A stretch of 29,615 nt of DNA from a virus. Its lineage: Duplodnaviria; Heunggongvirae; Uroviricota; Caudoviricetes. The stretch covers positions 1 to 29,615 of IMG/VR virus record IMGVR_UViG_2654587686_000021. One strand, given 5' to 3'. Below, piece by piece: positions 1-14,638 of the stretch. The position numbers were made by a program, and so were the translations under genes. The notes below the pieces were generated by a model, which had not been told where the DNA came from, did not search any database, and saw nothing but the letters and a program-made list of their open reading frames with translations. The first letter of the stretch is position 1, and every line of letters begins with the position of its first letter.

Positions 1-1209
1 ATGTCGGTTTTTCATAACTGGCTGCTTGATATCGCAAGCGGGAATTACTTTATCTACATCAAACGCCTTTCTGCAAACGACACAGGCGCAACAGGTGGCC
101 ATCAGGTCGGACTTTATATCCCCTCAAATATCGTTGAAAAGCTTTTTCCATCTATCAATCATACTCGCGAACTGAACCCTTCAGTCTTCCTTACTGCGCA
201 TGTATCATCCCATGATTGCCCTGATACCCAAGCACGCGCAATTTATTACAACAACCGTTATTTTGGTAAGACCCGAAACGAAAAAAGAATTACGCGCTGG
301 GGGAGAGGAAGTCCATTACAGAACCCTGAAAATACAGGAGCCCTCACAATTCTTGCTTTCAGGTTAAACGAACAGAACACTGACTGTTCCGAGGTAGATA
401 TATGGGTCTGCGTCAATCCCGATGAAGAGGATATCATCGAGTCTGCTATTGGCGAAATCATACCTGGAACCCTAATTTCCGGCCCTGCCGGACAAATTTT
501 GGGCGGATTGTCTCTTCAGCAAACTCCAGTAAATCATAAATATGTTATTCCTGAAGACTGGAAGAAGCGTTTTCCTTCTGGAAACGAAATTATTCAATAT
601 GCTGCTGGCCATTATGCTAAAAACTCCAAGGATCCAGATGAGCAACTGATTGACCGTCGGCGTGTCGAGTATGATATTTTTCTACTCGTCGAGGAATTAC
701 ATGTTCTTGATATTATTAAGAAAGGATTCGATTCTGTAGATGAGTTTATTGCATTAGCCAACTCTGTCAGTAATCGACGTAAATCAAGGGCAGGTAAATC
801 ACTTGAACTTCACCTAGAGAAGCTTTTTATCGAGCACGGACTACGGCATTTCTCCACTCAGGCAGTTACTGAAGGTAATAAAAAACCAGATTTCCTGTTT
901 CCTTCAGCAGAGGCATATCATAACGTTGAATTTCCTGTAGAAAACTTACGTATGCTGGCAGTAAAGACCACCTGCAAAGATCGCTGGCGTCAGATACTGA
1001 ATGAAGCAGATAAAATCCATCAGGTACATTTATTTACGCTGCAAGAAGGTGTTTCTTCAGCACAATACCGGGAAATGAAAGATGCGGGTGTCAGACTCGT
1101 TGTACCATCAACTTTACATAAAAAATACCCAGAAGCAGTTAGAGAAGAATTAATAACGCTCGGAGCATTCATTACTGAGCTGATAGAACTTTACGCTGAA
1201 CTATCATAG
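1..1209 (+). CDS. ecoRIIR: Type IIE restriction endonuclease, EcoRII-like (CCWGG)
   Basis: 402-aa ORF starting exactly at window base 1. N-terminus MSVFHNWLL...KRLSANDTGATGGHQVGLYIP matches my recollection of R.EcoRII (about 404 aa). Convergent with a Dcm/M.EcoRII-family methyltransferase 35 bp away. Upstream region is outside the window. Confidence 0.75.
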   Translation: MSVFHNWLLDIASGNYFIYIKRLSANDTGATGGHQVGLYIPSNIVEKLFPSINHTRELNPSVFLTAHVSSHDCPDTQARAIYYNNRYFGKTRNEKRITRWGRGSPLQNPENTGALTILAFRLNEQNTDCSEVDIWVCVNPDEEDIIESAIGEIIPGTLISGPAGQILGGLSLQQTPVNHKYVIPEDWKKRFPSGNEIIQYAAGHYAKNSKDPDEQLIDRRRVEYDIFLLVEELHVLDIIKKGFDSVDEFIALANSVSNRRKSRAGKSLELHLEKLFIEHGLRHFSTQAVTEGNKKPDFLFPSAEAYHNVEFPVENLRMLAVKTTCKDRWRQILNEADKIHQVHLFTLQEGVSSAQYREMKDAGVRLVVPSTLHKKYPEAVREELITLGAFITELIELYAELS

Positions 1210-1243: not shown

Positions 1244-2677
1244 TCAAGGCTGCCCAGTCTTACCAGCATCAGCAGAAACAGCTTTGAGGATATAGGGTTC
1301 CAGAAGTCTGGCAACGGCTTCAAATACTGGCACCACAACGGAGTTACCGAACTGCCGATATGACTGAGTATCTGAAACCGGAATACGGAATGGTTTCCCT
1401 CCAGGTTTTTCAAACCCCATAAGGCGTGCGCACTCTCGGGGAGTCAGCCTGCGTGGTCGACGAGCCTGGTTACTCTCATTCATAAAGTCAGCCTCTCCCG
1501 TTGCCATATCCCAACCACGATCAATAAGAATTTCTGATCCGTCTTTGTGATATCTGGCAGAAAGTGTGCGTGCAATGCTTTCCTTATTCTCAGGATTGAC
1601 CAACCCAAAGCCAAAACCATTCCCCTTGGCTGCATGCTTTTTGGCGTAGTTATAAAGGTACTCCCATAGTTTTGGCGTAAGTATATATTTACTGTCGACT
1701 ACAGGCTCCAGCAATTCACCAAATGATGGGCGGTGTTCCGGATAAAAACGACTGATATCACGCAAGGTAAACCCCTTGTGAATATTCAGATCTCGTCTAA
1801 ATCCGACCAGAACAATGCGTTCACGATGCTGAGGCAAAAAATGCTTCCCATCGATAATCTTTGGATCGTTTTTTCCCATTTCTGCAGCATCGGCAACTTC
1901 GTAGCCCAGCTCGTCAAGGGTCTCCATAATGACTTTGAAAGTTTTACCCTTATCATGGCTCTTCAGATTTTTGACATTTTCCAGCACAAAAATTGCCGGT
2001 TTTTTTGCTCGTATAATACGTGCCACGTCAAAAAAAAGTGTTCCTTGTGCTTCACATTCAAAACCATGCGCACGACCAAGTGAGTTTTTCTTACTAACAC
2101 CAGCAAGGCTAAATGGCTGGCACGGGAACCCCGCAAGAAGCACATCATGATCCGGCACATGCTCATCAATATATGCATAAGCATCCGTTTCCAATACATC
2201 GGTTTTATCACTCAGCGTGACTTCCCGAATATCGAGATTGAATTTATGCACCTGTTCATCGTTAAACCAGTTGGCCTTGTATGTACGCACAGCATCTTTA
2301 TTCCATTCACTGGTAAAAACACACTGGCCTCCAATGGCCTCAAAACCTTTCCGTATCCCTCCAATTCCAGCAAATAAGTCAATGAAGCGGAAAGCATATT
2401 CCGGATGGTTTGCAGGTGGTTCTGGTAGCATCTTACGCAGAAGAGACTCTTCTACTGAAGTCAACGATTTTGGTAAACACTTGCCATTAATCCAGCGGTT
2501 GATGGTTTCACGGCTCCACTCATTTTTTCCGACTTTTCTCAGTAATTCAGCCACATACTTCTGATCATAGATTTCCAGCACTTTCTCGATAAGCTTTTTA
2601 TCATTTTCCTGTCGCAGCTTTTCTTCCGCCTCGGCTTCCTTCAGCAGATGCTGTGCCAACACTTCAAATTCAGACAT
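1244..2677 (-). CDS. ecoRIIM: DNA cytosine-5 methyltransferase, Dcm/M.EcoRII family (CCWGG-specific)
   Basis: C5-MTase motifs in the translation: [10 protein letters not shown] (motif I, AdoMet binding), [11 protein letters not shown] (motif IV, catalytic Cys), ENVKNL (motif VI), [10 protein letters not shown] (motif X). Start moved from ORF-track 2719 to the ATG at 2677 (MSEFEVLAQ...), which has a GGAGGA ribosome-binding site 4 nt upstream and gives 477 aa. Confidence 0.88.
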
Positions 2678-2984
2678 AATTCCTCCAAGGGGTCTAATGG
2701 GTGAAACTCTATCACTCATTCAACCCAGAAGGAAATGTTTTATCTGGATATTTAAACAGTGACTACAACGTAATCTAGCACTGGTGATGCTTTGTTAGGC
2801 ATAGAGAATCATTCTATATACGACTAATGACAGAAAAACAGCAGACAAGTAGTTTGTTCATAAATTAACGCATACTACGTGCCTACGGTTTTCGAGACCG
2901 GTCCAATCATCAAACGAAACATAAAATTAGCTCACATTATGAGGAAAAGTATCTTTTTTGTACTATGTAAATTCAAAGGCTTAG

Positions 2985-3854
<870 letters not shown>

Positions 3855-3911: not shown

Positions 3912-4502
3912 TCATTTATCTCCGACCGGAAACTTCTTATACAGTGTCGATATACCAACATCATAGATGATCGCCACCTTCTGGCGAGGAACGCCTGATG
4001 CAATTAATCGCCCGGCCTGCGCCCATTGTTCTGGTGTAAGTTTGGGACGACGTCCACCAATTCGTCCCTGTGCGCGAGCAGCTTCCAGTCCAGCTTTTGT
4101 TCGTTCAACAATCAGTTCTCGTTCCATTTCAGCCAGGGCACCCATCACATGAAAGAAAAAACGCCCCATCGGTGTGCTGGTATCAATAGCATCCGTCAGG
4201 CTGCGAAAATTAACGCCACGTTCGCGCAACTCCTCAACCAGAATGACCAGATGCCGCATACTACGCCCTAGCCGATCCAGCTTCCAGACAACCAGAGTGT
4301 CACCTGCCGATAATGTCCTGAGCAGTTTTTTCAATCCCGGCCTTTCGGACTTTGTACCGCTTATCTTGTCTTCAAAAATCAGCTCGCATCCTGCACAGTT
4401 CAGCGCATTACGTTGTAGATCTGTGTTCTGGTCATTTGTTGACACACGTACATAGCCAATAAGCATGGTAGATCTCCCTGACAAAAGCAGGAATGATGCC
4501 AT
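3912..4502 (-). CDS. pin: Serine recombinase, DNA invertase of the Pin/Gin/Hin family
   Basis: N-terminal catalytic region LIGYVRVSTNDQ, resolvase-type core, and a C-terminal helix-turn-helix (RRPKLTPEQWAQAGRLIASGVPRQKVAIIYDVGISTLYK). Lies immediately beside an inverted-repeat-bounded tail-fibre segment. Confidence 0.9.
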   Translation of the reverse strand: MASFLLLSGRSTMLIGYVRVSTNDQNTDLQRNALNCAGCELIFEDKISGTKSERPGLKKLLRTLSAGDTLVVWKLDRLGRSMRHLVILVEELRERGVNFRSLTDAIDTSTPMGRFFFHVMGALAEMERELIVERTKAGLEAARAQGRIGGRRPKLTPEQWAQAGRLIASGVPRQKVAIIYDVGISTLYKKFPVGDK

Positions 4503-4532
4503 TTGCTCGTTATTTCTGCATTTTCATAAACG

Positions 4533-4563
4533 TTGGTTTGGGAGAAGCGGCAAAACGGAATGT
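4533..4563. repeat. Left inverted repeat / crossover site of the invertible tail-fibre segment
   Basis: 31-nt core ttggtttgggagaagcggcaaaacggaatgt is the exact reverse complement of 6035..6065. The flanking aaac(g/c)ttggttt resembles the AAACCnnGGTTT core of hix/gix/pix sites. Confidence 0.8.
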
Positions 4564-4900
4564 AGGTAACGAGCAAAACCAAATTCCGGATATGGCGGCG
4601 TTTGCCAGTTCACTTTCATCAACGGGGTTTCAAAAACTCCCTTCAGGTCTGATTATTCAGTGGGGTATTGTCAGTGGAGCATCAAACTATACGGTGACTT
4701 ACCCGGTAACATTCCCAAATCGTTCACTTGCGCTGTTGGCTGTGCCACATACAACGTCGGTGGCTGGTATATCTGCAATGGGCATAGCGAACTGTTCTGA
4801 TATCAGCAAATCACAGTTCTATATAATTGTTGGCGGTATATCTCAGGGAGAAATTGTCAAATATGAAAGGTCCTGTTTTTGGGTAGCAATCGGTGTATAG
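4564..4900 (+). CDS. Alternative tail-fibre C-terminal variable segment (silent orientation; joins the constant N-terminal part only after inversion)
   Basis: The plus-strand frame continues directly out of the left inverted repeat. It shares [11 protein letters not shown]...NQIPDM with the active fibre gene and then diverges. It has no start of its own; the ORF-track portion 4493..4532 is upstream of the repeat and not coding. Confidence 0.6.
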
Positions 4901-4908
4901 GTATATCT

Positions 4909-5304
4909 ATGATTTATTTCTCAAAATCGACTAATGGTTTTTTCTTTGATGGTATAAACAGCGACATGCCTGCTGACATTGTTGAGATAAGTACAGACTT
5001 ATACAATGAATTAATTGCCGGACAGCAGGAAGGGGGGGAATTAATCACGTCAGATGAAAATGGTTTACCGGTACTGAAATCTCCGGCGATTGATTATGTC
5101 GCACGTGCTGAAAATCAGCGAATGCAGTTACTTGCTCATGCCGATAATGTCACAGCTGACTGGCGGGTGGAATTAATGCTTGGTGATATCAGCAGTACAG
5201 ATAAAGAAAAACTATCTGCCTGGATGGACTACAAAAAAGAAGTAAAAGCCGTCGACACTTCGACGGCTCCTGAGATTAGCTGGCCTGAGTTACCGGAGGT
5301 GTAG
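4909..5304 (+). CDS. Tail fibre assembly protein (Tfa), partner of the silent fibre segment
   Basis: N-terminal MIYFSKSTNGFFFDG and C-terminal [12 protein letters not shown] are the conserved ends of Tfa chaperones (lambda Tfa ends VDTSTAPDIEWP). The first ATG is 4909; ORF-track start 4879 is a TTG. Confidence 0.7.
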   Translation: MIYFSKSTNGFFFDGINSDMPADIVEISTDLYNELIAGQQEGGELITSDENGLPVLKSPAIDYVARAENQRMQLLAHADNVTADWRVELMLGDISSTDKEKLSAWMDYKKEVKAVDTSTAPEISWPELPEV

Positions 5305-5695
5305 GCCATTCAATATCTGGCGCACCGGAAGTATCGACCAGTTCCAGTGCGTCCAGGTAATCCAGCCACAAATTATATTGTGCCAGTTCCTCACCTTTCA
5401 GCCGGCCAATAGCCGCTTTACCAGGCCATTGTTTACTGTTCATATAATCGTTGGCCTGTTCAATAAGTATATTTTTCATTCCCTCCGCTTCAGCTATTTC
5501 CTGTTCCTGTGTCTTCGCTGGATATTCAGTAAGTATAGGGTAGTTATCCGGGCTATTGATAATAATTTTCCCCGTACTCTGACCATTCATAAGTTCATAA
5601 TAAAGAGCATCTTCAATATCGAAAGCATCATCGGGAATATCGCTGTTGTTTTCAGAGAAAAATCCCTGAACAGATGGGGACCATTTCATTTTCAT
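5276..5695 (-). CDS. Tail fibre assembly protein (Tfa), active orientation
   Basis: C-terminal [13 protein letters not shown] Tfa signature. Start ATG overlaps the fibre-gene stop (ATGA). Confidence 0.8.
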
Positions 5696-6354
5696 AATTT
5701 CCCAATTCCTAAAATATGGACATCATCAGCCTTACGGGCATTCCAGGTGACAATTACATCGGTAGAGTGACGATTAACTGAGATTGCGTATGCTTCGTTA
5801 GTCGAGCCAGAAACTTTTGTGGCAAACACAGCAAACAGGACACCAAATGACTGGGGCCATTTATAGCCTGACAGCTGATAATTACCATTATTCAGTGTTA
5901 CAGCTTTGGCTGCTGCACTTGATGGAATCGTCAGCCACTGGAGTATCAACCCTCCTGGCAAAAGTTGTTTTCCGTAATAATCCCTCACCCCACTAAATGA
6001 AACCATGTCCGGTATCTGATTTTCCCCTGTGCCCACATTCCGTTTTGCCGCTTCTCCCAAACCAAGGTTTTCGAGAGCCGTTTTCACCGTGCCATCCGAT
6101 TTGATATCGCTAAACGGATTCTTGCGGCTTAACAGCAGCGCACGAAGCGCGGTAAGCAGCTGGTCATGCCGCCCCTTCTCCAGGCTGGCACCGGATGCCT
6201 CCACCACGCTGCAGAGTTCTTCCTGCAACATATCAAAGTAGTCATCATCAAGATCGGTGGCAGGTGTGCCGGTCTGGGGGTTACCACGGGTAAAACCGTT
6301 TTTACCCGCGCCGAACTTATCCTTCTGCGCGGTTTTCGTGTCTATACGATGCAT
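5692..6354 (-). CDS. Tail fibre protein (e14 StfP/YcfK-like); constant N-terminus outside and variable C-terminus inside the invertible segment
   Basis: 220-aa ORF that crosses the right inverted repeat at GLGEAAKRN. Gene order follows YmfQ-like and baseplate J-like genes, as in e14. Confidence 0.8.
6035..6065. repeat. Right inverted repeat / crossover site of the invertible segment
   Basis: Exact reverse complement of 4533..4563 (31 nt), lying inside the fibre gene. Confidence 0.8.
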
Positions 6355-11416: not shown

Positions 11417-11947
11417 TTAGCGAGTCAGAAACAACGAATCTTTATACTTTTGCTGTTGTTCATTTAAATACTTAGCTGTTTCATCGCTGGCAAATGGAAA
11501 TATTACCGTATTTTTAGGCATGGTAATTTCTTTTTTGTCCAGCGTCAGAGTAAACATAGGAACATACTGAGCAGAGTAACGCACCGCAGAAACGAGCTCT
11601 AGTTTAGACTCTTCAATAACACTTAAATTATCCAGGCTAACTTTCTCTTCATCTTTTTTCTTTGACGCATTTAAAGTTTTTATTACTTTATTTAATTTCT
11701 CCTGAAAATCCTCCTTAAAGTTTTCAGGATTGCCGTCGACAACAAGAATCTGTTCACCCTGATTATCTGGAAAAATAATCTTTGCACTTATCAATTTATT
11801 TTCTTTATAAACATCACCAAGTTTTATGGCTCCTCCAGATAACTGAATAATATGTTCATCTTTAAAGGAGATGTTGCCAGAGATTATGAGAGATGAAAAA
11901 ATAGCCGCTACTCCAAGAATTACACTTGCTGTGATATAGCCTTTCAT
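11417..11947 (-). CDS. Hypothetical exported or membrane-anchored protein (AT-rich moron)
   Basis: 176 aa with N-terminal hydrophobic signal/anchor MKGYITASVILGVAAIFSSLIISG and a Lys/Glu/Asp-rich body. Markedly AT-rich, with its own downstream terminator. Inserted between tape measure and Mu N-like genes. Confidence 0.6.
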   Translation of the reverse strand: MKGYITASVILGVAAIFSSLIISGNISFKDEHIIQLSGGAIKLGDVYKENKLISAKIIFPDNQGEQILVVDGNPENFKEDFQEKLNKVIKTLNASKKKDEEKVSLDNLSVIEESKLELVSAVRYSAQYVPMFTLTLDKKEITMPKNTVIFPFASDETAKYLNEQQQKYKDSLFLTR

Positions 11948-12038: not shown

Positions 12039-13871
12039 CTACCAAAATCGGGTATAGCCAACATCGTGATTTATATCAATGCCACTGGAGCGTGTTTCCG
12101 TAACCCGCATACCTGATGGCATATTTATAAATGATACCTTGATCTCACCATCAACTTTTGGCGCGGTAGCTTTATTAATCATGAAGGGATTCGAGCCTGT
12201 GGCATCGGAGGCGTTGTTTGCCTGAGCCGGATCCACCGCCGGATAAGGAGTGTATCCCCGTGCCGGTATTCCCGTCCCATAAGCATCATAAGCACCCGCG
12301 CCCCACTGCGCAGAGTTAATGGCATCGACCGTGTCACCGGAACTGTCGGTAAACCACTCAATAATTGGCTTCAGCTTGTCCCACATATCCTGAAACCACT
12401 TAACAACCGGCCCCCAGTTATTGATCACCATCCCCAGCGGCGACCAGGCAAAAACTTTCTTAAGGAGTTCCCAGCCAGCCTCAAAATAAGGACCAATGGT
12501 TTCCCAGAGTTTCTTAAAATAAGGTCCGACAACATCCCAGTTAGTGATAATTAATCCCGCAGCCAGGGCTATCGCCGTCGCAATCATGCCAATCGGCGTC
12601 ATCGACATGATCCTGCTGACAATACTGATGGCACCGCCAACGCCCATCAATCCCAGTTTCAGAATCGCAAGACCGGCAGCAAGCCCGACGACGCCGCGAA
12701 TAACCCGGGGATTTTCATCCGCAAACTTCGTGAATTTTTCCCCCAACTCCCCCAGCCATTGCGTGATATTTTTAGCGTCACCAGAAAATGCGCCGCCAAT
12801 AGCAGCAAGACCGTTAGTTGCGGTCCCCGTCATTGCCTCCCACAGGTTGGACAGCGTACCAAGCTGAGCCTGAACACGTTTATTCAGGCTGGCCTGTTTA
12901 TTCATCTTCTGCTGGATCTGATCGTAGCCATCCTTTCCTTTATCGATCAGGGCATTGACCACCTGAAGGGTTTCGGCATCATCACCAAATATTGCCTTAA
13001 GTACGCCTGTTCGCTTAACGTCGGTCAGTTTTCGCAACTTTGCCAGTTGCCTGAACATGTTATCAAGACCGCCAAAACTTCCTTTGCCGTCAGTAAAATC
13101 GAGCTGTACCCCGAGTTTCTGGCGGGCCATGACTTTATTGACGTCCCTGATTTTCTTAACACTTAATCCGGACTGGATAACTTTTCGCAGGGCATTACCT
13201 GCCGACTCCCCGTTCATCCCCATCTGATCCATCATGACGCTGATGGGGGCAAGGCTCTGTGCAGCCTGAAGACCGTCCTTGTTCACCATCTTCAGAACAG
13301 AACTGGTTTTAGTGAAGAAGGACAACATGTTGGTATCGTCAACGCCCAGATAAAACGCCTTCTGGATAGTGTCGAACAGCCCCATCATGTCTTCTGACGC
13401 CGTTCCGGTAGCATCCTGCATCTTTGCAGCAAACTCAGCAGCCGCTTCCGGTGTTTTTTTCAGTTGTACCGCAAGATAAGCTGTCGCTTTACCCACACCA
13501 CCCAGAATGTTTTCTGCCGGGATCCCCTGCCGCACCAGCATCTGCATCATGTTCTGGAAATCAGCCGTTGTACCGGGTAGCTGGTTACCCAGGCCAATAG
13601 CCAGTTTATTGATGTCCTGAAAGCTCTTTCCAACCTCGCCGTTCGCATCCATCATGGCGACTTTCAGCCCGGTAGCGGCGTTTTCCTGATCGGCATAAGA
13701 TTTCAGGGAAAGCGTCAGCCCCGCTGCCAGTCCTCCACCAAGCGCCAGCCCACCCTGTGACGCTTCTTCCGCCTGGCGTTTAAATCCCCGGATTTTCTTT
13801 TGCATTTTCGACAGCGCGGGAGAAAGCCTGTCGACACCGGTGATCAACGCCTTAAGCTCAAATTCAGCCAT
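12039..13871 (-). CDS. Tail tape measure protein
   Basis: 610 aa with Ala/Gly-rich helical N-terminal half and hydrophobic Gly-rich central segments, directly downstream of the frameshifted chaperone. Confidence 0.85.
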   Translation of the reverse strand: MAEFELKALITGVDRLSPALSKMQKKIRGFKRQAEEASQGGLALGGGLAAGLTLSLKSYADQENAATGLKVAMMDANGEVGKSFQDINKLAIGLGNQLPGTTADFQNMMQMLVRQGIPAENILGGVGKATAYLAVQLKKTPEAAAEFAAKMQDATGTASEDMMGLFDTIQKAFYLGVDDTNMLSFFTKTSSVLKMVNKDGLQAAQSLAPISVMMDQMGMNGESAGNALRKVIQSGLSVKKIRDVNKVMARQKLGVQLDFTDGKGSFGGLDNMFRQLAKLRKLTDVKRTGVLKAIFGDDAETLQVVNALIDKGKDGYDQIQQKMNKQASLNKRVQAQLGTLSNLWEAMTGTATNGLAAIGGAFSGDAKNITQWLGELGEKFTKFADENPRVIRGVVGLAAGLAILKLGLMGVGGAISIVSRIMSMTPIGMIATAIALAAGLIITNWDVVGPYFKKLWETIGPYFEAGWELLKKVFAWSPLGMVINNWGPVVKWFQDMWDKLKPIIEWFTDSSGDTVDAINSAQWGAGAYDAYGTGIPARGYTPYPAVDPAQANNASDATGSNPFMINKATAPKVDGEIKVSFINMPSGMRVTETRSSGIDINHDVGYTRFW

Positions 13872-14046
13872 GTGTGCGTTTCTCCTGCTCTATCCTGTTT
13901 GCCTGACTGACCAGCAAGGGAATTTCACTGATCGGCATATTCAGCAATTCGAAGGGATTAATGCGCCAGTAGCTGGCGCAGTCAAAGAAGCGATCAGTGA
14001 GGTATTCAGCCGTCAGGCCTGGAGGAAAAAACCAGCCACAAGCCAC
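13864..14046 (-). CDS. Frameshift extension of the tail assembly chaperone (GT / E-prime-like)
   Basis: ORF in the -1 frame overlaps the 3' end of the chaperone gene and ends 8 nt into the tape measure gene. A T-TTT-TTC slippery heptamer lies in the overlap. Confidence 0.6.
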   Translation of the reverse strand: MACGWFFPPGLTAEYLTDRFFDCASYWRINPFELLNMPISEIPLLVSQANRIEQEKRTHG

Positions 14047-14282
14047 GCCGCTGCATTCAGGTCTGCCGGAGACATCTGGTCGACAGAGCTTTGCGGCACT
14101 TTCGCCAGCCGCACAATGTATTTCGACACCACATGCGCCAGAAGTCTGACGGACTCATCCTGATTCATCTGGTAGGGATACCCCAGCTCGCCGACATCTT
14201 TCCCGGTGGGCTCATCAAACTCCAGTACGGAGAGTGTCTCGCCATGAGCGGTAATCGGTTTCTTTAACTCAAGCTCTTTCAT
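14013..14282 (-). CDS. Tail assembly chaperone (lambda G / P2 E / Mu gp41 analogue)
   Basis: 89 aa between tube and tape measure genes, with a downstream -1 frame overlap. Confidence 0.7.
   Translation of the reverse strand: MKELELKKPITAHGETLSVLEFDEPTGKDVGELGYPYQMNQDESVRLLAHVVSKYIVRLAKVPQSSVDQMSPADLNAAAWLVAGFFLQA
14024..14033 (-). promoter_or_regulatory. Programmed -1 ribosomal frameshift site (minus strand GGT-TTT-TTC-C)
   Basis: Six consecutive T followed by C on the coding strand in the zero frame G-GTT-TTT-TCC; a shift to -1 reads TTT-TTT-CCT-CCA (..FFPPGLT..). Confidence 0.6.
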
Positions 14283-14638
14283 TACTGGTAATCCCCTTCT
14301 TCACCGTGGAACTCAAGATCGACCGTGCCTTCTTCGGCATTATGGTTCGCTTCGCCGTGCAGCCAGGCAGACGACAGTACATAGACCTGACCGTTCGCCA
14401 GCTCGGCAGTGATGGTCATCTCATCAGACGAGGTGATTTTGCTCACCGGAAAATTCTTCGGCACCTTGAAGGTCCCTTTGACATAAGGCGCACGGTGAGT
14501 TTCCTTGCGGTCCACTGAACCGTCCAGGCCGATGATGTCATCATTGACCGTCCTGTTCATGGGCACCTCAATGCCGCCGGTCAGCGATAGCTGCTGACCG
14601 TCAATTTTGAAATAACAGGTTCCCCCGATACGGGCCAT
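14282..14638 (-). CDS. Tail tube protein (Mu M-like)
   Basis: 118 aa immediately downstream of the sheath gene. Confidence 0.7.
   Translation of the reverse strand: MARIGGTCYFKIDGQQLSLTGGIEVPMNRTVNDDIIGLDGSVDRKETHRAPYVKGTFKVPKNFPVSKITSSDEMTITAELANGQVYVLSSAWLHGEANHNAEEGTVDLEFHGEEGDYQ

What the first reader, a model, noticed from the sequence alone, without database searches (positions are those of the whole stretch)
13864..14282. Programmed -1 frameshift site (T-TTT-TTC) joining tail chaperone to a downstream extension
The 3' end of the 89-aa chaperone ORF contains GGT-TTT-TTC in frame. An overlapping -1 ORF (13864-14046) begins its meaningful reading at exactly this run and ends 8 nt inside the tape measure gene. 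This is the conserved G/GT (lambda) and E/E-prime (P2) arrangement; I predict a fusion of roughly 140 aa made at low frequency.
Basis: partly seen in the sequence, partly recalled or inferred. Interest (0 to 1): 0.4.

Follow-up and report, generated by a model that had tools for sequence, protein, structure and literature searches.

The report
Tail chaperone frameshift site, SfV-like prophage
This is the usual "slippery" spot in a phage tail-assembly gene, where a few ribosomes slip back one base to make a longer second protein. It is real and strongly conserved, but it is an ordinary example of a well-known mechanism that database annotations of this phage group have left out.

Summary
All the genes are on the minus strand. 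The 89-aa tail assembly chaperone gene (14282-14013) lies between the tail tube and tape measure genes. Four codons before its stop it carries T_TTT_TTC (14031-14025) in the correct X_XXY_YYZ phase. A -1 slip gives a 139-aa fusion with junction ..LVAGFF|PPGLTAEY... The fusion ends at 13864, 8 nt inside the tape measure gene.

The window is about 99% identical to Shigella/E. coli phages SfV, SfI and SfII. I examined 19 non-redundant relatives, down to 38% chaperone identity and including Derxia. All of them keep GGT TTT TT[C/T] at the same aligned position. Its synonymous positions are frozen, while every other conserved codon varies. The -1 frame encodes a conserved 50-59-aa domain (..FDCAxYWRINP..QANRI..) that ends at the tape measure start. 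In 11 of the 19 relatives that frame has no start codon of its own.

The site aligns with the annotated P2 E/E+E' frameshift site (GGT TTT TTG), and both chaperones belong to Pfam Phage_TAC_7. I found no conserved stimulatory RNA structure.

None of the public records examined annotates the fusion.

Verdict: a real programmed -1 frameshift site. It is an unannotated member of a thoroughly known class and of low interest.

The parts
14282..14638 (-). Tail tube gene (118 aa). Its stop overlaps the chaperone ATG by one base (TAATG).
   Evidence: Pfam Tail_tube, E = 2.4e-33. ORF list. Sequence.
14013..14282 (-). Tail assembly chaperone ORF, zero frame, 89 aa. It is the equivalent of lambda gpG and P2 gpE.
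   Evidence: Pfam Phage_TAC_7, E = 1.3e-14, residues 4-86. PHROG 166 'tail protein'. RefSeq names it 'phage tail assembly protein'.
14025..14031 (-). Slippery heptamer T_TTT_TTC in X_XXY_YYZ phase (codons GG[T TTT TTC]).
   Evidence: One search gives position and phase. GGT TTT TT[C/T] is invariant in 19 non-redundant loci, while all other conserved degenerate codons vary.
13864..14025 (-). The -1 frame extension ('T' domain): 53 codons (PPGLTAEY...EKRTHG) plus the TGA stop. It can be reached only by a -1 slip at the heptamer.
   Evidence: Conserved motif FDCAxYWRINP...QANRI. Substitutions are biased to the third codon position. 11 of 19 relatives have no start codon in this frame. It matches PHROG 32181.
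12039..13871 (-). Tail tape measure protein gene (610 aa). Its ATG lies 8 nt before the end of the -1 ORF (ATGGCTGA).
   Evidence: Pfam PhageMin_Tail, E = 9.8e-27. The 8-nt overlap is kept in most relatives and in P2.
13962..13980 (-). Local 8-bp hairpin UGCGCCAG-CUA-CUGGCGCA, 44 nt downstream of the heptamer. It is probably a by-product of the conserved C-A-S-Y-W-R codons and not a frameshift stimulator.
   Evidence: Single-sequence fold. RNAalifold finds no consensus structure: -3.77 kcal/mol, covariation term +0.1. Pair counts are 85% paired against 82% in shuffles, with 3 compensatory cells.

Best explanation
This is a programmed -1 ribosomal frameshift site in the tail assembly chaperone gene of an SfV-like prophage. 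The prophage has a contractile, Mu-like tail.

**Proposed mechanism.** Most ribosomes read GGU UUU UUC CUC CAG GCC UGA and release the 89-aa chaperone. A minority have tRNA-Phe on UUU in the P site and tRNA-Phe on UUC in the A site, and slip back one base. Both tRNAs then re-pair with UUU. Those ribosomes continue in the -1 frame for 53 more codons and make a 139-aa fusion protein that ends 8 nt inside the tape measure gene.

**Inferred function.** By analogy with lambda gpG/gpGT and P2 gpE/gpE+E', the shared N-terminal part would coat the tape measure protein. The frameshift-only C-terminal domain would recruit the tail tube protein. The fixed slip frequency would set the ratio of the two proteins that tail assembly needs.

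**Shown here:** the anatomy, nucleotide-level selection on the heptamer, protein-level selection on the -1 frame, and homology of the site to the P2 site.

**Inferred, not shown:** that the fusion is made, how often it is made, and what each domain binds.

The slip appears to depend on the heptamer and its local context alone. No conserved downstream structure or upstream Shine-Dalgarno-like element was found.
For: 1. **Anatomy.** The heptamer is in phase, 4 codons before the stop. The -1 ORF runs to the tape measure start.
2. **Context.** Sheath, tube, Phage_TAC_7 chaperone and tape measure gene are in the expected order.
3. **Conservation in genomes.** 22 genome loci spanning 99% to 38% chaperone identity each carry GGT TTT TT[C/T] once, in phase, at the same aligned ..GFF position. 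They come from Enterobacterales, uncultured proteobacteria and Derxia gummosa. Each has a -1 ORF of 50-59 codons that ends at or within the tape measure start, while the zero-frame stop moves between 9 and 63 nt downstream.
4. **Conservation in phages.** Eight further phages carry T_TTT_TTN at the same place: AH07, F1055, ST64B, SfIV, phiP27, BgVeeders33, DVM-2008 and PG1.
5. **Codon-level selection.** Among the 18 amino-acid columns invariant in 19 loci, only Gly GGT and Phe TTT of the heptamer are invariant as codons. Trp has a single codon and is uninformative. Every other column uses 2-6 codons.
6. **The -1 frame is coding.** Substitution counts by codon position are 478:291:950. The frame has a conserved motif.
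7. **No independent start.** 11 of 19 loci have no ATG, GTG or TTG in the -1 frame upstream of the conserved domain. Where one exists, it comes from the overlapping Trp codon and the 16 nt upstream of it look unrelated between loci.
8. **Homology to P2.** A profile of the fusion proteins aligns over 118 columns with P2 gpE+E' (E = 8.3e-5) and places VAGF on P2's VVGF. The P2 record annotates a -1 frameshift there, at GGT TTT TTG. P2 has the same geometry: 91 aa, 142 aa and an 8-nt overlap. PMC3091744 cites Christie 2002 and Xu 2004 for this site.
9. **The motif is slippery in E. coli.** U_UUU_UUC gives up to 7.6% frameshifting with a stimulator in reporter assays (PMC4066793 Table S3).
Against: - There is no direct evidence that the fusion protein exists.
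- The bare heptamer gave only 0.12% frameshifting in an E. coli reporter without a stimulator, and I found no conserved stimulator. P2's UUUUUUG is equally weak in that reporter (0.118%). The review PMC5009743 nevertheless describes the native P2 site as 2-3 fold more efficient than lambda's.
- 3 of 80 near-identical prophage copies in IMG/VR have GGG instead of GGT (L047, L078, L084). This breaks P-site re-pairing.
- One unverified relative, Paraburkholderia phage IPK, has GGC TTC TTC and no heptamer at all.
- None of the database records examined annotates the fusion.
Confidence: 0.9

Rival explanations
1. The -1 ORF (14046-13864, 60 aa from a GTG) is a separate small gene, translated from its own start and not as a fusion.
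For: One phage record, vB_EcoM-689R6, annotates it as a separate 'hypothetical protein'. PHROGs holds a family of such calls, phrog_32181, of unknown function.
Against: 11 of 19 relatives have no ATG, GTG or TTG in that frame before the conserved domain. Where a start codon exists, it is the xTG created by the overlapping Trp codon of the chaperone, and the 16 nt upstream of it look unrelated between loci. An independent gene would not explain the codon-level invariance of GGT TTT TTY. In the homologous P2 arrangement the record annotates a fusion.
Confidence: 0.03
2. The fusion is made by transcriptional slippage. RNA polymerase adds one extra U in the T run, which gives exactly the same protein without any ribosomal slip.
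For: The site is a homopolymer run, and inserting one U would give the same GFF|PPGL product. Some relatives have a 7-T run.
Against: The run here is only 6 T. To my knowledge, efficient bacterial transcriptional slippage needs roughly 9 or more (background knowledge, not tested here). The run is kept in the same codon phase in all relatives. Ribosomal tandem slippage requires that phase and polymerase slippage does not. The base after the run is restricted to C/T, or G in P2 and PG1, which fits A-site decoding.
Confidence: 0.05
3. The heptamer and the open -1 frame are coincidental, and only the 89-aa protein matters.
For: In-phase X_XXY_YYZ heptamers are frequent in this window, about 38 in 28 kb of ORFs. 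A few close relatives have a damaged heptamer.
Against: The heptamer is conserved at the nucleotide level. The -1 frame is conserved at the protein level across relatives down to 38% chaperone identity and in high-GC genomes. The end of the -1 ORF is consistently tied to the tape measure start.
Confidence: 0.02

Closest known systems
Phage P2 gpE / gpE+E' (-1 frameshift at T_TTT_TTG in the FETUD tail operon)
   Same: Both chaperones belong to Pfam Phage_TAC_7. The slip site sits at the aligned ..V[AV]GF position with the shared nucleotides GGT TTT TT. The sizes nearly match: 89/139 aa here against 91/142 aa in P2. The frameshift ORF overlaps the tape measure gene by 8 nt in both. No downstream structure is reported for P2 (PMC3091744) and none was found here.
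   Different: The last base of the heptamer is C here and G in P2. Similarity of the C-terminal extension to P2 E' is weak: there is no hit to Pfam Phage_P2_GpE, and a T-domain-only profile comparison gives E = 0.002 at 14% probability. The rest of the tail module is Mu-like, not P2-like (DNA_circ_N, Phage_Mu_Gp48).
Phage lambda gpG / gpGT (-1 frameshift at G_GGA_AAG)
   Same: The gene position is the same, between the major tail (tube) gene and the tape measure gene. The logic is the same: a short abundant chaperone plus a rare frameshift-extended form. The roles described for lambda are that the G part binds the tape measure protein and the T part binds the tail tube protein, and that neither is in the virion (PMC5009743).
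   Different: I detected no sequence similarity. The heptamer and the tRNAs differ (Phe-Phe here, Gly-Lys in lambda). Lambda has a non-contractile tail.
Phage Mu gp41 (tail assembly chaperone with a reported -2 frameshift)
   Same: The surrounding tail module is Mu-like: sheath, 118-aa tube, DNA-circularisation-type protein and gp48-like baseplate protein. The gene position is the same.
   Different: Mu gp41 is 144 aa and belongs mainly to a different Pfam family, Gp41_Mu. BLASTP finds no similarity to this chaperone. Mu is reported to use -2 and not -1 (PMC2628397 and PMC5009743, citing Xu et al. 2004). In the window the +1/-2 frame closes 7 nt after the stop.
Phages SfV, SfI, SfII, SKA5 and vB_EcoM-689R6, and prophages in about 20% of complete E. 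coli genomes
   Same: The DNA is 98.3-99.9% identical over this region, with the same heptamer and an identical 53-aa extension.
   Different: There is no biological difference. In those records the fusion is not annotated: they show only orf13 / 'tail protein', and in one case a separate hypothetical ORF.

Membership tests
Tailed-phage tail assembly chaperone pair made by programmed frameshift (lambda G/GT type, Xu-Hendrix-Duda 2004) | The gene lies between the major tail/tube gene and the tape measure gene. | tested here: met
   Tube 14638-14282, chaperone 14282-14013, tape measure gene 13871-12039. Pfam assignments.
Tailed-phage tail assembly chaperone pair made by programmed frameshift (lambda G/GT type, Xu-Hendrix-Duda 2004) | [quoted passage not shown] | tested here: met
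   T_TTT_TTC at 14031-14025, in phase, 4 codons before the stop.
Tailed-phage tail assembly chaperone pair made by programmed frameshift (lambda G/GT type, Xu-Hendrix-Duda 2004) | A second ORF in the -1 frame overlaps the first, lacks its own start, and extends to the tape measure gene. | tested here: met
   53 codons ending 8 nt inside the tape measure gene. 11 of 19 relatives have no start codon in that frame.
Tailed-phage tail assembly chaperone pair made by programmed frameshift (lambda G/GT type, Xu-Hendrix-Duda 2004) | The slip site and the shifted-frame protein are both conserved among relatives. | tested here: met
   Exceptions are noted: IPK and 3 of 80 close copies.
Tailed-phage tail assembly chaperone pair made by programmed frameshift (lambda G/GT type, Xu-Hendrix-Duda 2004) | Both proteins are made in a fixed ratio, the long form being the minority. 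| not testable with these tools
   This needs protein detection or a reporter assay. The only indirect figure is 0.12-7.6% for UUUUUUC in E. coli reporters, depending on the stimulator (PMC4066793 Table S3).
Tailed-phage tail assembly chaperone pair made by programmed frameshift (lambda G/GT type, Xu-Hendrix-Duda 2004) | Both proteins are required for tail assembly and are absent from the virion. The short part binds the tape measure protein and the extension binds the tube protein. | not testable with these tools
   Inferred only, from the description of lambda in PMC5009743.
Pfam PF10109 Phage_TAC_7 (P2 gpE-type chaperones) | The score is above the Pfam gathering threshold. | tested here: met
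   54.4 bits against a cut-off of 25, E = 1.3e-14, residues 4-86. P2 gpE+E' scores 47.8 bits.
Pfam PF10109 Phage_TAC_7 (P2 gpE-type chaperones) | The frameshift site is positionally homologous to the P2 E/E+E' site. | tested here: met
   hhalign of the fusion profile against P2 gpE+E': E = 8.3e-5, probability 61%, VAGF aligned to VVGF. GGT TTT TT is shared at the DNA level.
Pfam PF06528 Phage_P2_GpE (the E' extension of P2) | The C-terminal extension matches the family model. | tested here: not met
   No hit even at E <= 10. A T-domain-only profile against P2 E' gives E = 0.002 but only 14% probability. A distant relationship is possible but is not established.
Mu gp41-type chaperone with -2 frameshift | It matches Pfam Gp41_Mu, and the downstream ORF lies in the +1/-2 frame. 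| tested here: not met
   No Gp41_Mu hit for the window protein. The +1/-2 frame closes 7 nt after the stop. There is no BLASTP similarity to Mu gp41.

The most novel reading that the evidence does not exclude
The recoding site itself (GGU UUU UUN at the ..GFF/GFL position) may be an inherited character of the whole gpE-type chaperone family. It would then be shared by P2-like tails and by SfV-type, Mu-like tails across Gamma- and Betaproteobacteria. In that case it may work far more efficiently in its native context than the bare heptamer does in reporters (0.12%), through a stimulator not yet recognised. Candidates are the conserved nascent peptide W-x-V-A-G-F-F or the hairpin 44 nt downstream.
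Probability: 0.15. Interest if true: 0.4.

Novelty: new member of a known kind. Interest (0 to 1): 0.15.

Why it matters
The main value is for annotation. About one in five complete E. coli genomes carries this prophage region (1099 of 5426). The reference records I examined for phages SfV, SfI, SfII, SfIV, ST64B and phiP27 do not show the 139-aa fusion. [quoted passage not shown] Recognising the frameshift explains the gap and assigns that orphan family to the frameshift-only domain of the tail chaperone.

The finding also shows that a Mu-like contractile tail module can use a P2-type -1 site where Mu itself uses -2. It does not change what is understood about frameshifting or tail assembly.

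Tried and rejected
- **Downstream stimulatory RNA structure.**
  - The single-sequence fold of the 105 nt after the heptamer looks stable (z = -3.8).
  - RNAalifold on 19 relatives gives essentially no consensus structure: -3.77 kcal/mol, covariation term +0.1.
  - The one good hairpin lies 44 nt downstream, which is too far for a canonical 5-9-nt spacer. It sits on the conserved CASYWR codons. It is 85% paired against 82% in shuffles, with three compensatory cells.
  - I rejected it as a demonstrated stimulator.
- **Upstream Shine-Dalgarno-like stimulator.** By eye, nothing is conserved in the 30 nt upstream.
- **Structure prediction of the fusion.** The single-sequence model had pLDDT 44.5 and is unusable, so I ran no fold search.
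- **Solved structures.** There is no meaningful hit for the family profile; the best E-value is 0.18.
- **Literature.**
  - Xu et al. 2004, Christie et al. 2002 and the SfV genome paper are not held in the library.
  - I therefore could not check whether SfV was already listed among predicted frameshift sites.
  - Searches of the open-access library found no paper describing this family's site.
  - The E. coli-wide heptamer screen of Sharma et al. 2014 lists only A_AAA_AAG and G_GGA_AAG tail-chaperone clusters, not this one.
- **Full-length fused ORFs in the protein database (P0001-P0003).** They looked at first like annotated fusions. Each changes frame at a different place and is a singleton, so they are most likely assembly indels and not evidence.
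- **My first gene set for the chance estimate.** It dropped the chaperone gene itself because of an overlapping antisense ORF. I used it only for the background heptamer rate.
Full report
**1. What is in the sequence**

All the relevant genes are on the minus strand. Reading down from 16134, the order is as follows:

| Gene | Coordinates | Size | Pfam evidence |
|---|---|---|---|
| Tail sheath | 16134-14638 | 498 aa | Phage_sheath_1, E = 1e-33 |
| Tail tube | 14638-14282 | 118 aa | Tail_tube, E = 2e-33 |
| Chaperone | 14282-14013 | 89 aa | Phage_TAC_7, E = 1.3e-14 |
| Tape measure | 13871-12039 | 610 aa | PhageMin_Tail, E = 1e-26 |

The 89-aa ORF ends ...GCT GGT TTT TTC CTC CAG GCC TGA. The heptamer T TTT TTC therefore occupies 14031-14025, in exactly the X_XXY_YYZ phase that tandem -1 slippage needs. 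In the -1 frame the reading continues CCT CCA GGC CTG... for 53 codons, to a TGA at 13866-13864. That stop lies inside ATGGCTGA, 8 nt into the tape measure gene. The predicted fusion is 86 + 53 = 139 aa, with junction ..LVAGFF|PPGLTAEY... Every factual statement in the finding is correct.

**2. Where the window comes from**

The region is 98.3-99.0% identical to phages vB_EcoM-689R6, SfI, SfV, SKA5 and SfII. It is up to 99.9% identical to prophages in complete E. coli genomes, and 1099 of 5426 such genomes have a match. This is an SfV-type temperate phage with a Mu-like contractile tail module. Supporting Pfam hits are DNA_circ_N at 11361-10027 and Phage_Mu_Gp48 at 6942-6358.

None of the records I opened annotates a fusion:
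- SfV shows orf13 alone, followed by a 141-nt gap.
- RefSeq E. coli shows 'phage tail assembly protein' alone.
- vB_EcoM-689R6 calls the -1 ORF a separate hypothetical protein.

**3. Is it more than chance?**

A heptamer alone is weak evidence. About 38 in-phase X_XXY_YYZ heptamers occur in about 28 kb of ORFs in this window. That greedy ORF set left out the chaperone gene itself. None of the 38 heptamers it listed gives a -1 reading that passes the stop of a real gene. The single positive case lies in an ORF I judge spurious, antisense to real genes.

The comparative evidence is decisive. A scan of one genome per species returned 23 loci encoding relatives of the chaperone, at 99% to 38% identity. 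The 22 loci I analysed each carry GGT TTT TT[C/T] exactly once, in phase, at the same aligned ..GFF position. In each, the -1 ORF runs 50-59 codons and ends at or overlaps the tape measure start. The overlap is the same 8-nt ATGGCTGA in most of them. The zero-frame stop, by contrast, moves between 9 and 63 nt downstream. The set includes Derxia gummosa, a high-GC betaproteobacterium in which a T run stands out.

Eight further phages have T_TTT_TTC, T_TTT_TTT or T_TTT_TTG at the same position, with the same kind of extension: AH07, F1055, ST64B, SfIV, phiP27, BgVeeders33, DVM-2008 and PG1.

**4. Selection acts on the nucleotides of the heptamer and on the protein in the -1 frame**

Eighteen amino-acid columns of the fusion are invariant across 19 non-redundant loci. 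Every degenerate one uses 2-6 different codons, with two exceptions: the Gly (GGT in all 19) and the first Phe (TTT in all 19) of the heptamer. The second Phe is TTC in 17 and TTT in 2, and both keep the site slippery.

Downstream, substitutions fall at -1-frame codon positions 1:2:3 as 478:291:950. This is the signature of a translated frame under purifying selection. The peptide carries a conserved motif..[FY]-[FY]-D-C-A-x-[YF]-W-R-I-N-P-x-E-L-L ... Q-A-N-R-I...

**5. The -1 ORF is not an independent gene**

In 11 of 19 loci there is no ATG, GTG or TTG in the -1 frame between its upstream stop and the conserved domain. Where a start codon exists, it is the xTG produced by the overlapping Trp codon of the chaperone. 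The 16 nt upstream of it look unrelated between loci. A fusion made by frameshifting is the only route to expression common to all relatives.

PHROG 32181 (63 positions, 'unknown function') matches this ORF at E = 2e-41. In my reading, that family consists of this frameshift-only domain miscalled as a stand-alone gene.

**6. Relation to known systems**

P2 gpE and gpE+E' are annotated in NC_001895 as a joined CDS with a -1 frameshift. PMC3091744 describes E as 91 aa and E+E' as 142 aa, with the slip at TTTTTTG and no downstream structure, citing Christie 2002 and Xu 2004. Extracting the P2 sequence gives ...GTC GGT TTT TTG TCG..., that is ..VVGFL... P2 E+E' ends 8 nt inside the P2 tape measure gene T, the same geometry as here.

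P2 gpE+E' and the window protein both hit Pfam Phage_TAC_7. A profile of 16 fusion proteins aligns with P2 gpE+E' over 118 columns (E = 8.3e-5, probability 61%), with the two slip sites superposed.

The extension is a different matter. It does not hit Pfam Phage_P2_GpE. A T-domain-only profile comparison with P2 E' is collinear but weak (E = 0.002, probability 14%).

Mu is the phage whose tail genes this module most resembles, yet it differs at this point. Mu gp41 is 144 aa and belongs mainly to Pfam Gp41_Mu. It shows no BLASTP similarity to this chaperone. It is reported to use a -2 shift (PMC2628397; PMC5009743). In the window the +1/-2 frame closes after 7 nt.

Lambda G/GT is a functional analogue only.

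**7. Mechanism**

*Shown directly by the sequence.* P-site UUU and A-site UUC are both read by tRNA-Phe. After a -1 shift both pair with UUU, so re-pairing is fully cognate.

*Drawn from reporter data.* In E. coli, U_UUU_UUC gives 0.12% frameshifting alone, 0.89% with the IS911 stimulator and 7.6% with the IS3 pseudoknot. P2's U_UUU_UUG gives 0.118% alone (PMC4066793 Table S3). The review PMC5009743 nevertheless describes the native P2 frameshift as 2-3 fold more efficient than lambda's, whose product ratio it gives as 30:1. The low value for the bare heptamer therefore does not argue against function, and the true efficiency here is unknown.

*Stimulators.* I found no conserved stimulatory structure:
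- RNAalifold over 19 relatives gives -3.77 kcal/mol with a covariation term of +0.1.
- The stable hairpin at 13980-13962 starts 44 nt after the heptamer and coincides with the CASYWR codons.
- That hairpin is barely more paired than column shuffles: 85% against 82%, with three compensatory cells.

*Function of the two products.* This part is inferred from the description of lambda in PMC5009743. The shared part would bind the tape measure protein, the extension would recruit the tube protein, and neither would be in the virion.

**8. Rivals**

- **Transcriptional slippage** would give the same protein. However, the run is only six T, and its codon phase is conserved throughout the family. That fits ribosomal slippage and not polymerase slippage.
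- **Independent initiation** is addressed in section 5.
- **Coincidence** is excluded by sections 3 and 4.

**9. Caveats and exceptions**

- Among 80 near-identical IMG/VR prophage copies, 76 have the intact site and extension. Three (L047, L078, L084) have GGG instead of GGT, which spoils P-site re-pairing. One (L045) has the extension interrupted by unrelated sequence. These may be decaying prophages.
- Paraburkholderia phage IPK, an 'UNVERIFIED' record, has GGC TTC TTC and no heptamer. Its -1 frame opens only 10 nt before the chaperone stop, yet it encodes a recognisable extension.
- Three full-length 'fusion' proteins in the protein database (P0001-P0003) change frame at three different places and are singletons. 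They are most likely assembly indels.
- Structure prediction failed to give a usable model.
- There is no related solved structure.

**10. Verdict**

The finding is correct and its interpretation is supported. This is a real, strongly conserved, programmed -1 frameshift site of the tail-chaperone class. It is homologous to the P2 E/E+E' site and sits in an SfV-type prophage. The class is textbook knowledge. What is new is limited to two points:

1. This widespread family lacks the annotation.
2. The orphan PHROG 32181 can now be explained.

I could not read Xu et al. 2004 to see whether SfV-type phages were already listed there. If they were, the site is simply 'already known'. Interest is low.

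Noticed in passing
window 1-1209 (+) and 1244-2719 (-): This is a convergent EcoRII-type restriction-modification pair at the left end of the window. It consists of an EcoRII N- and C-domain endonuclease (E = 4e-61 and 2e-71) and a C-5 cytosine methyltransferase (E = 5e-78). I did not determine whether it is prophage cargo or flanking chromosome.
   Followed up: partly
window 3912-4502 (-), with 4493-5304 (+) and 5276-6354 (-): A serine recombinase or invertase (Resolvase + HTH_7, E = 1e-51) sits next to two oppositely oriented sets of genes for a tail-fibre C-terminus and a tail-fibre assembly protein (Gp53-like_C, and Caudo_TAP twice). It looks like a Mu G-segment or Pin/Cin-type invertible host-range switch. 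I did not search for the inverted repeats.
   Followed up: partly
window 3030-3854 (+): A 274-aa ORF with a LEM-3-like GIY-YIG nuclease domain (E = 2e-14) lies between the methyltransferase and the invertase.
   Followed up: no
window 11417-11947 (-): A 176-aa ORF lies between the tape measure gene and the DNA-circularisation-type gene. It has no Pfam match at E <= 0.001.
   Followed up: no
window 13962-13980 (-): This is a perfect 8-bp hairpin, UGCGCCAG-CUA-CUGGCGCA, 44 nt downstream of the slip site. It coincides with the most conserved codons of the extension (C-A-S-Y-W-R). It is kept in most relatives but with almost no compensatory change. No role is established.
   Followed up: yes
L047, L078, L084 (IMG/VR prophage contigs), around locus position 2748-2756: Three of 80 near-identical copies have GGG in place of GGT just before the T run (GGG TTT TTT CTC or GGG TTT TTC CTC). 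This removes the first base of the heptamer. They may be decaying prophages, or the site may tolerate an A-site-only slip.
   Followed up: partly
L045 (IMG/VR contig), downstream of locus position ~2850: The -1 extension diverges after ..INPFELLN and runs into a long unrelated ORF of several hundred codons in place of the tape measure start. This suggests an insertion or rearrangement in that contig.
   Followed up: no
L116 (Paraburkholderia phage IPK, PV588664.1, UNVERIFIED), locus ~800-920: This relative has GGC TTC TTC and no slippery heptamer, although it has a recognisable extension in the -1 frame. That frame opens only 10 nt before the chaperone stop. The slip site may have moved, a different recoding mechanism may be at work, or the sequence may contain an error.
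   Followed up: partly
Proteins P0001-P0003: These are 137-139-aa 'fusion' ORFs in public assemblies. They match the whole predicted fusion, but each changes frame at a different position and each is a singleton. They are most likely indel errors in or near the T run, not annotated frameshift products.
   Followed up: yes
PHROG phrog_32181: This PHROG family of 63 positions, labelled 'unknown function', matches the -1 ORF at E = 2e-41. It appears to consist of the frameshift-only domain of this chaperone family miscalled as a separate gene.
   Followed up: partly
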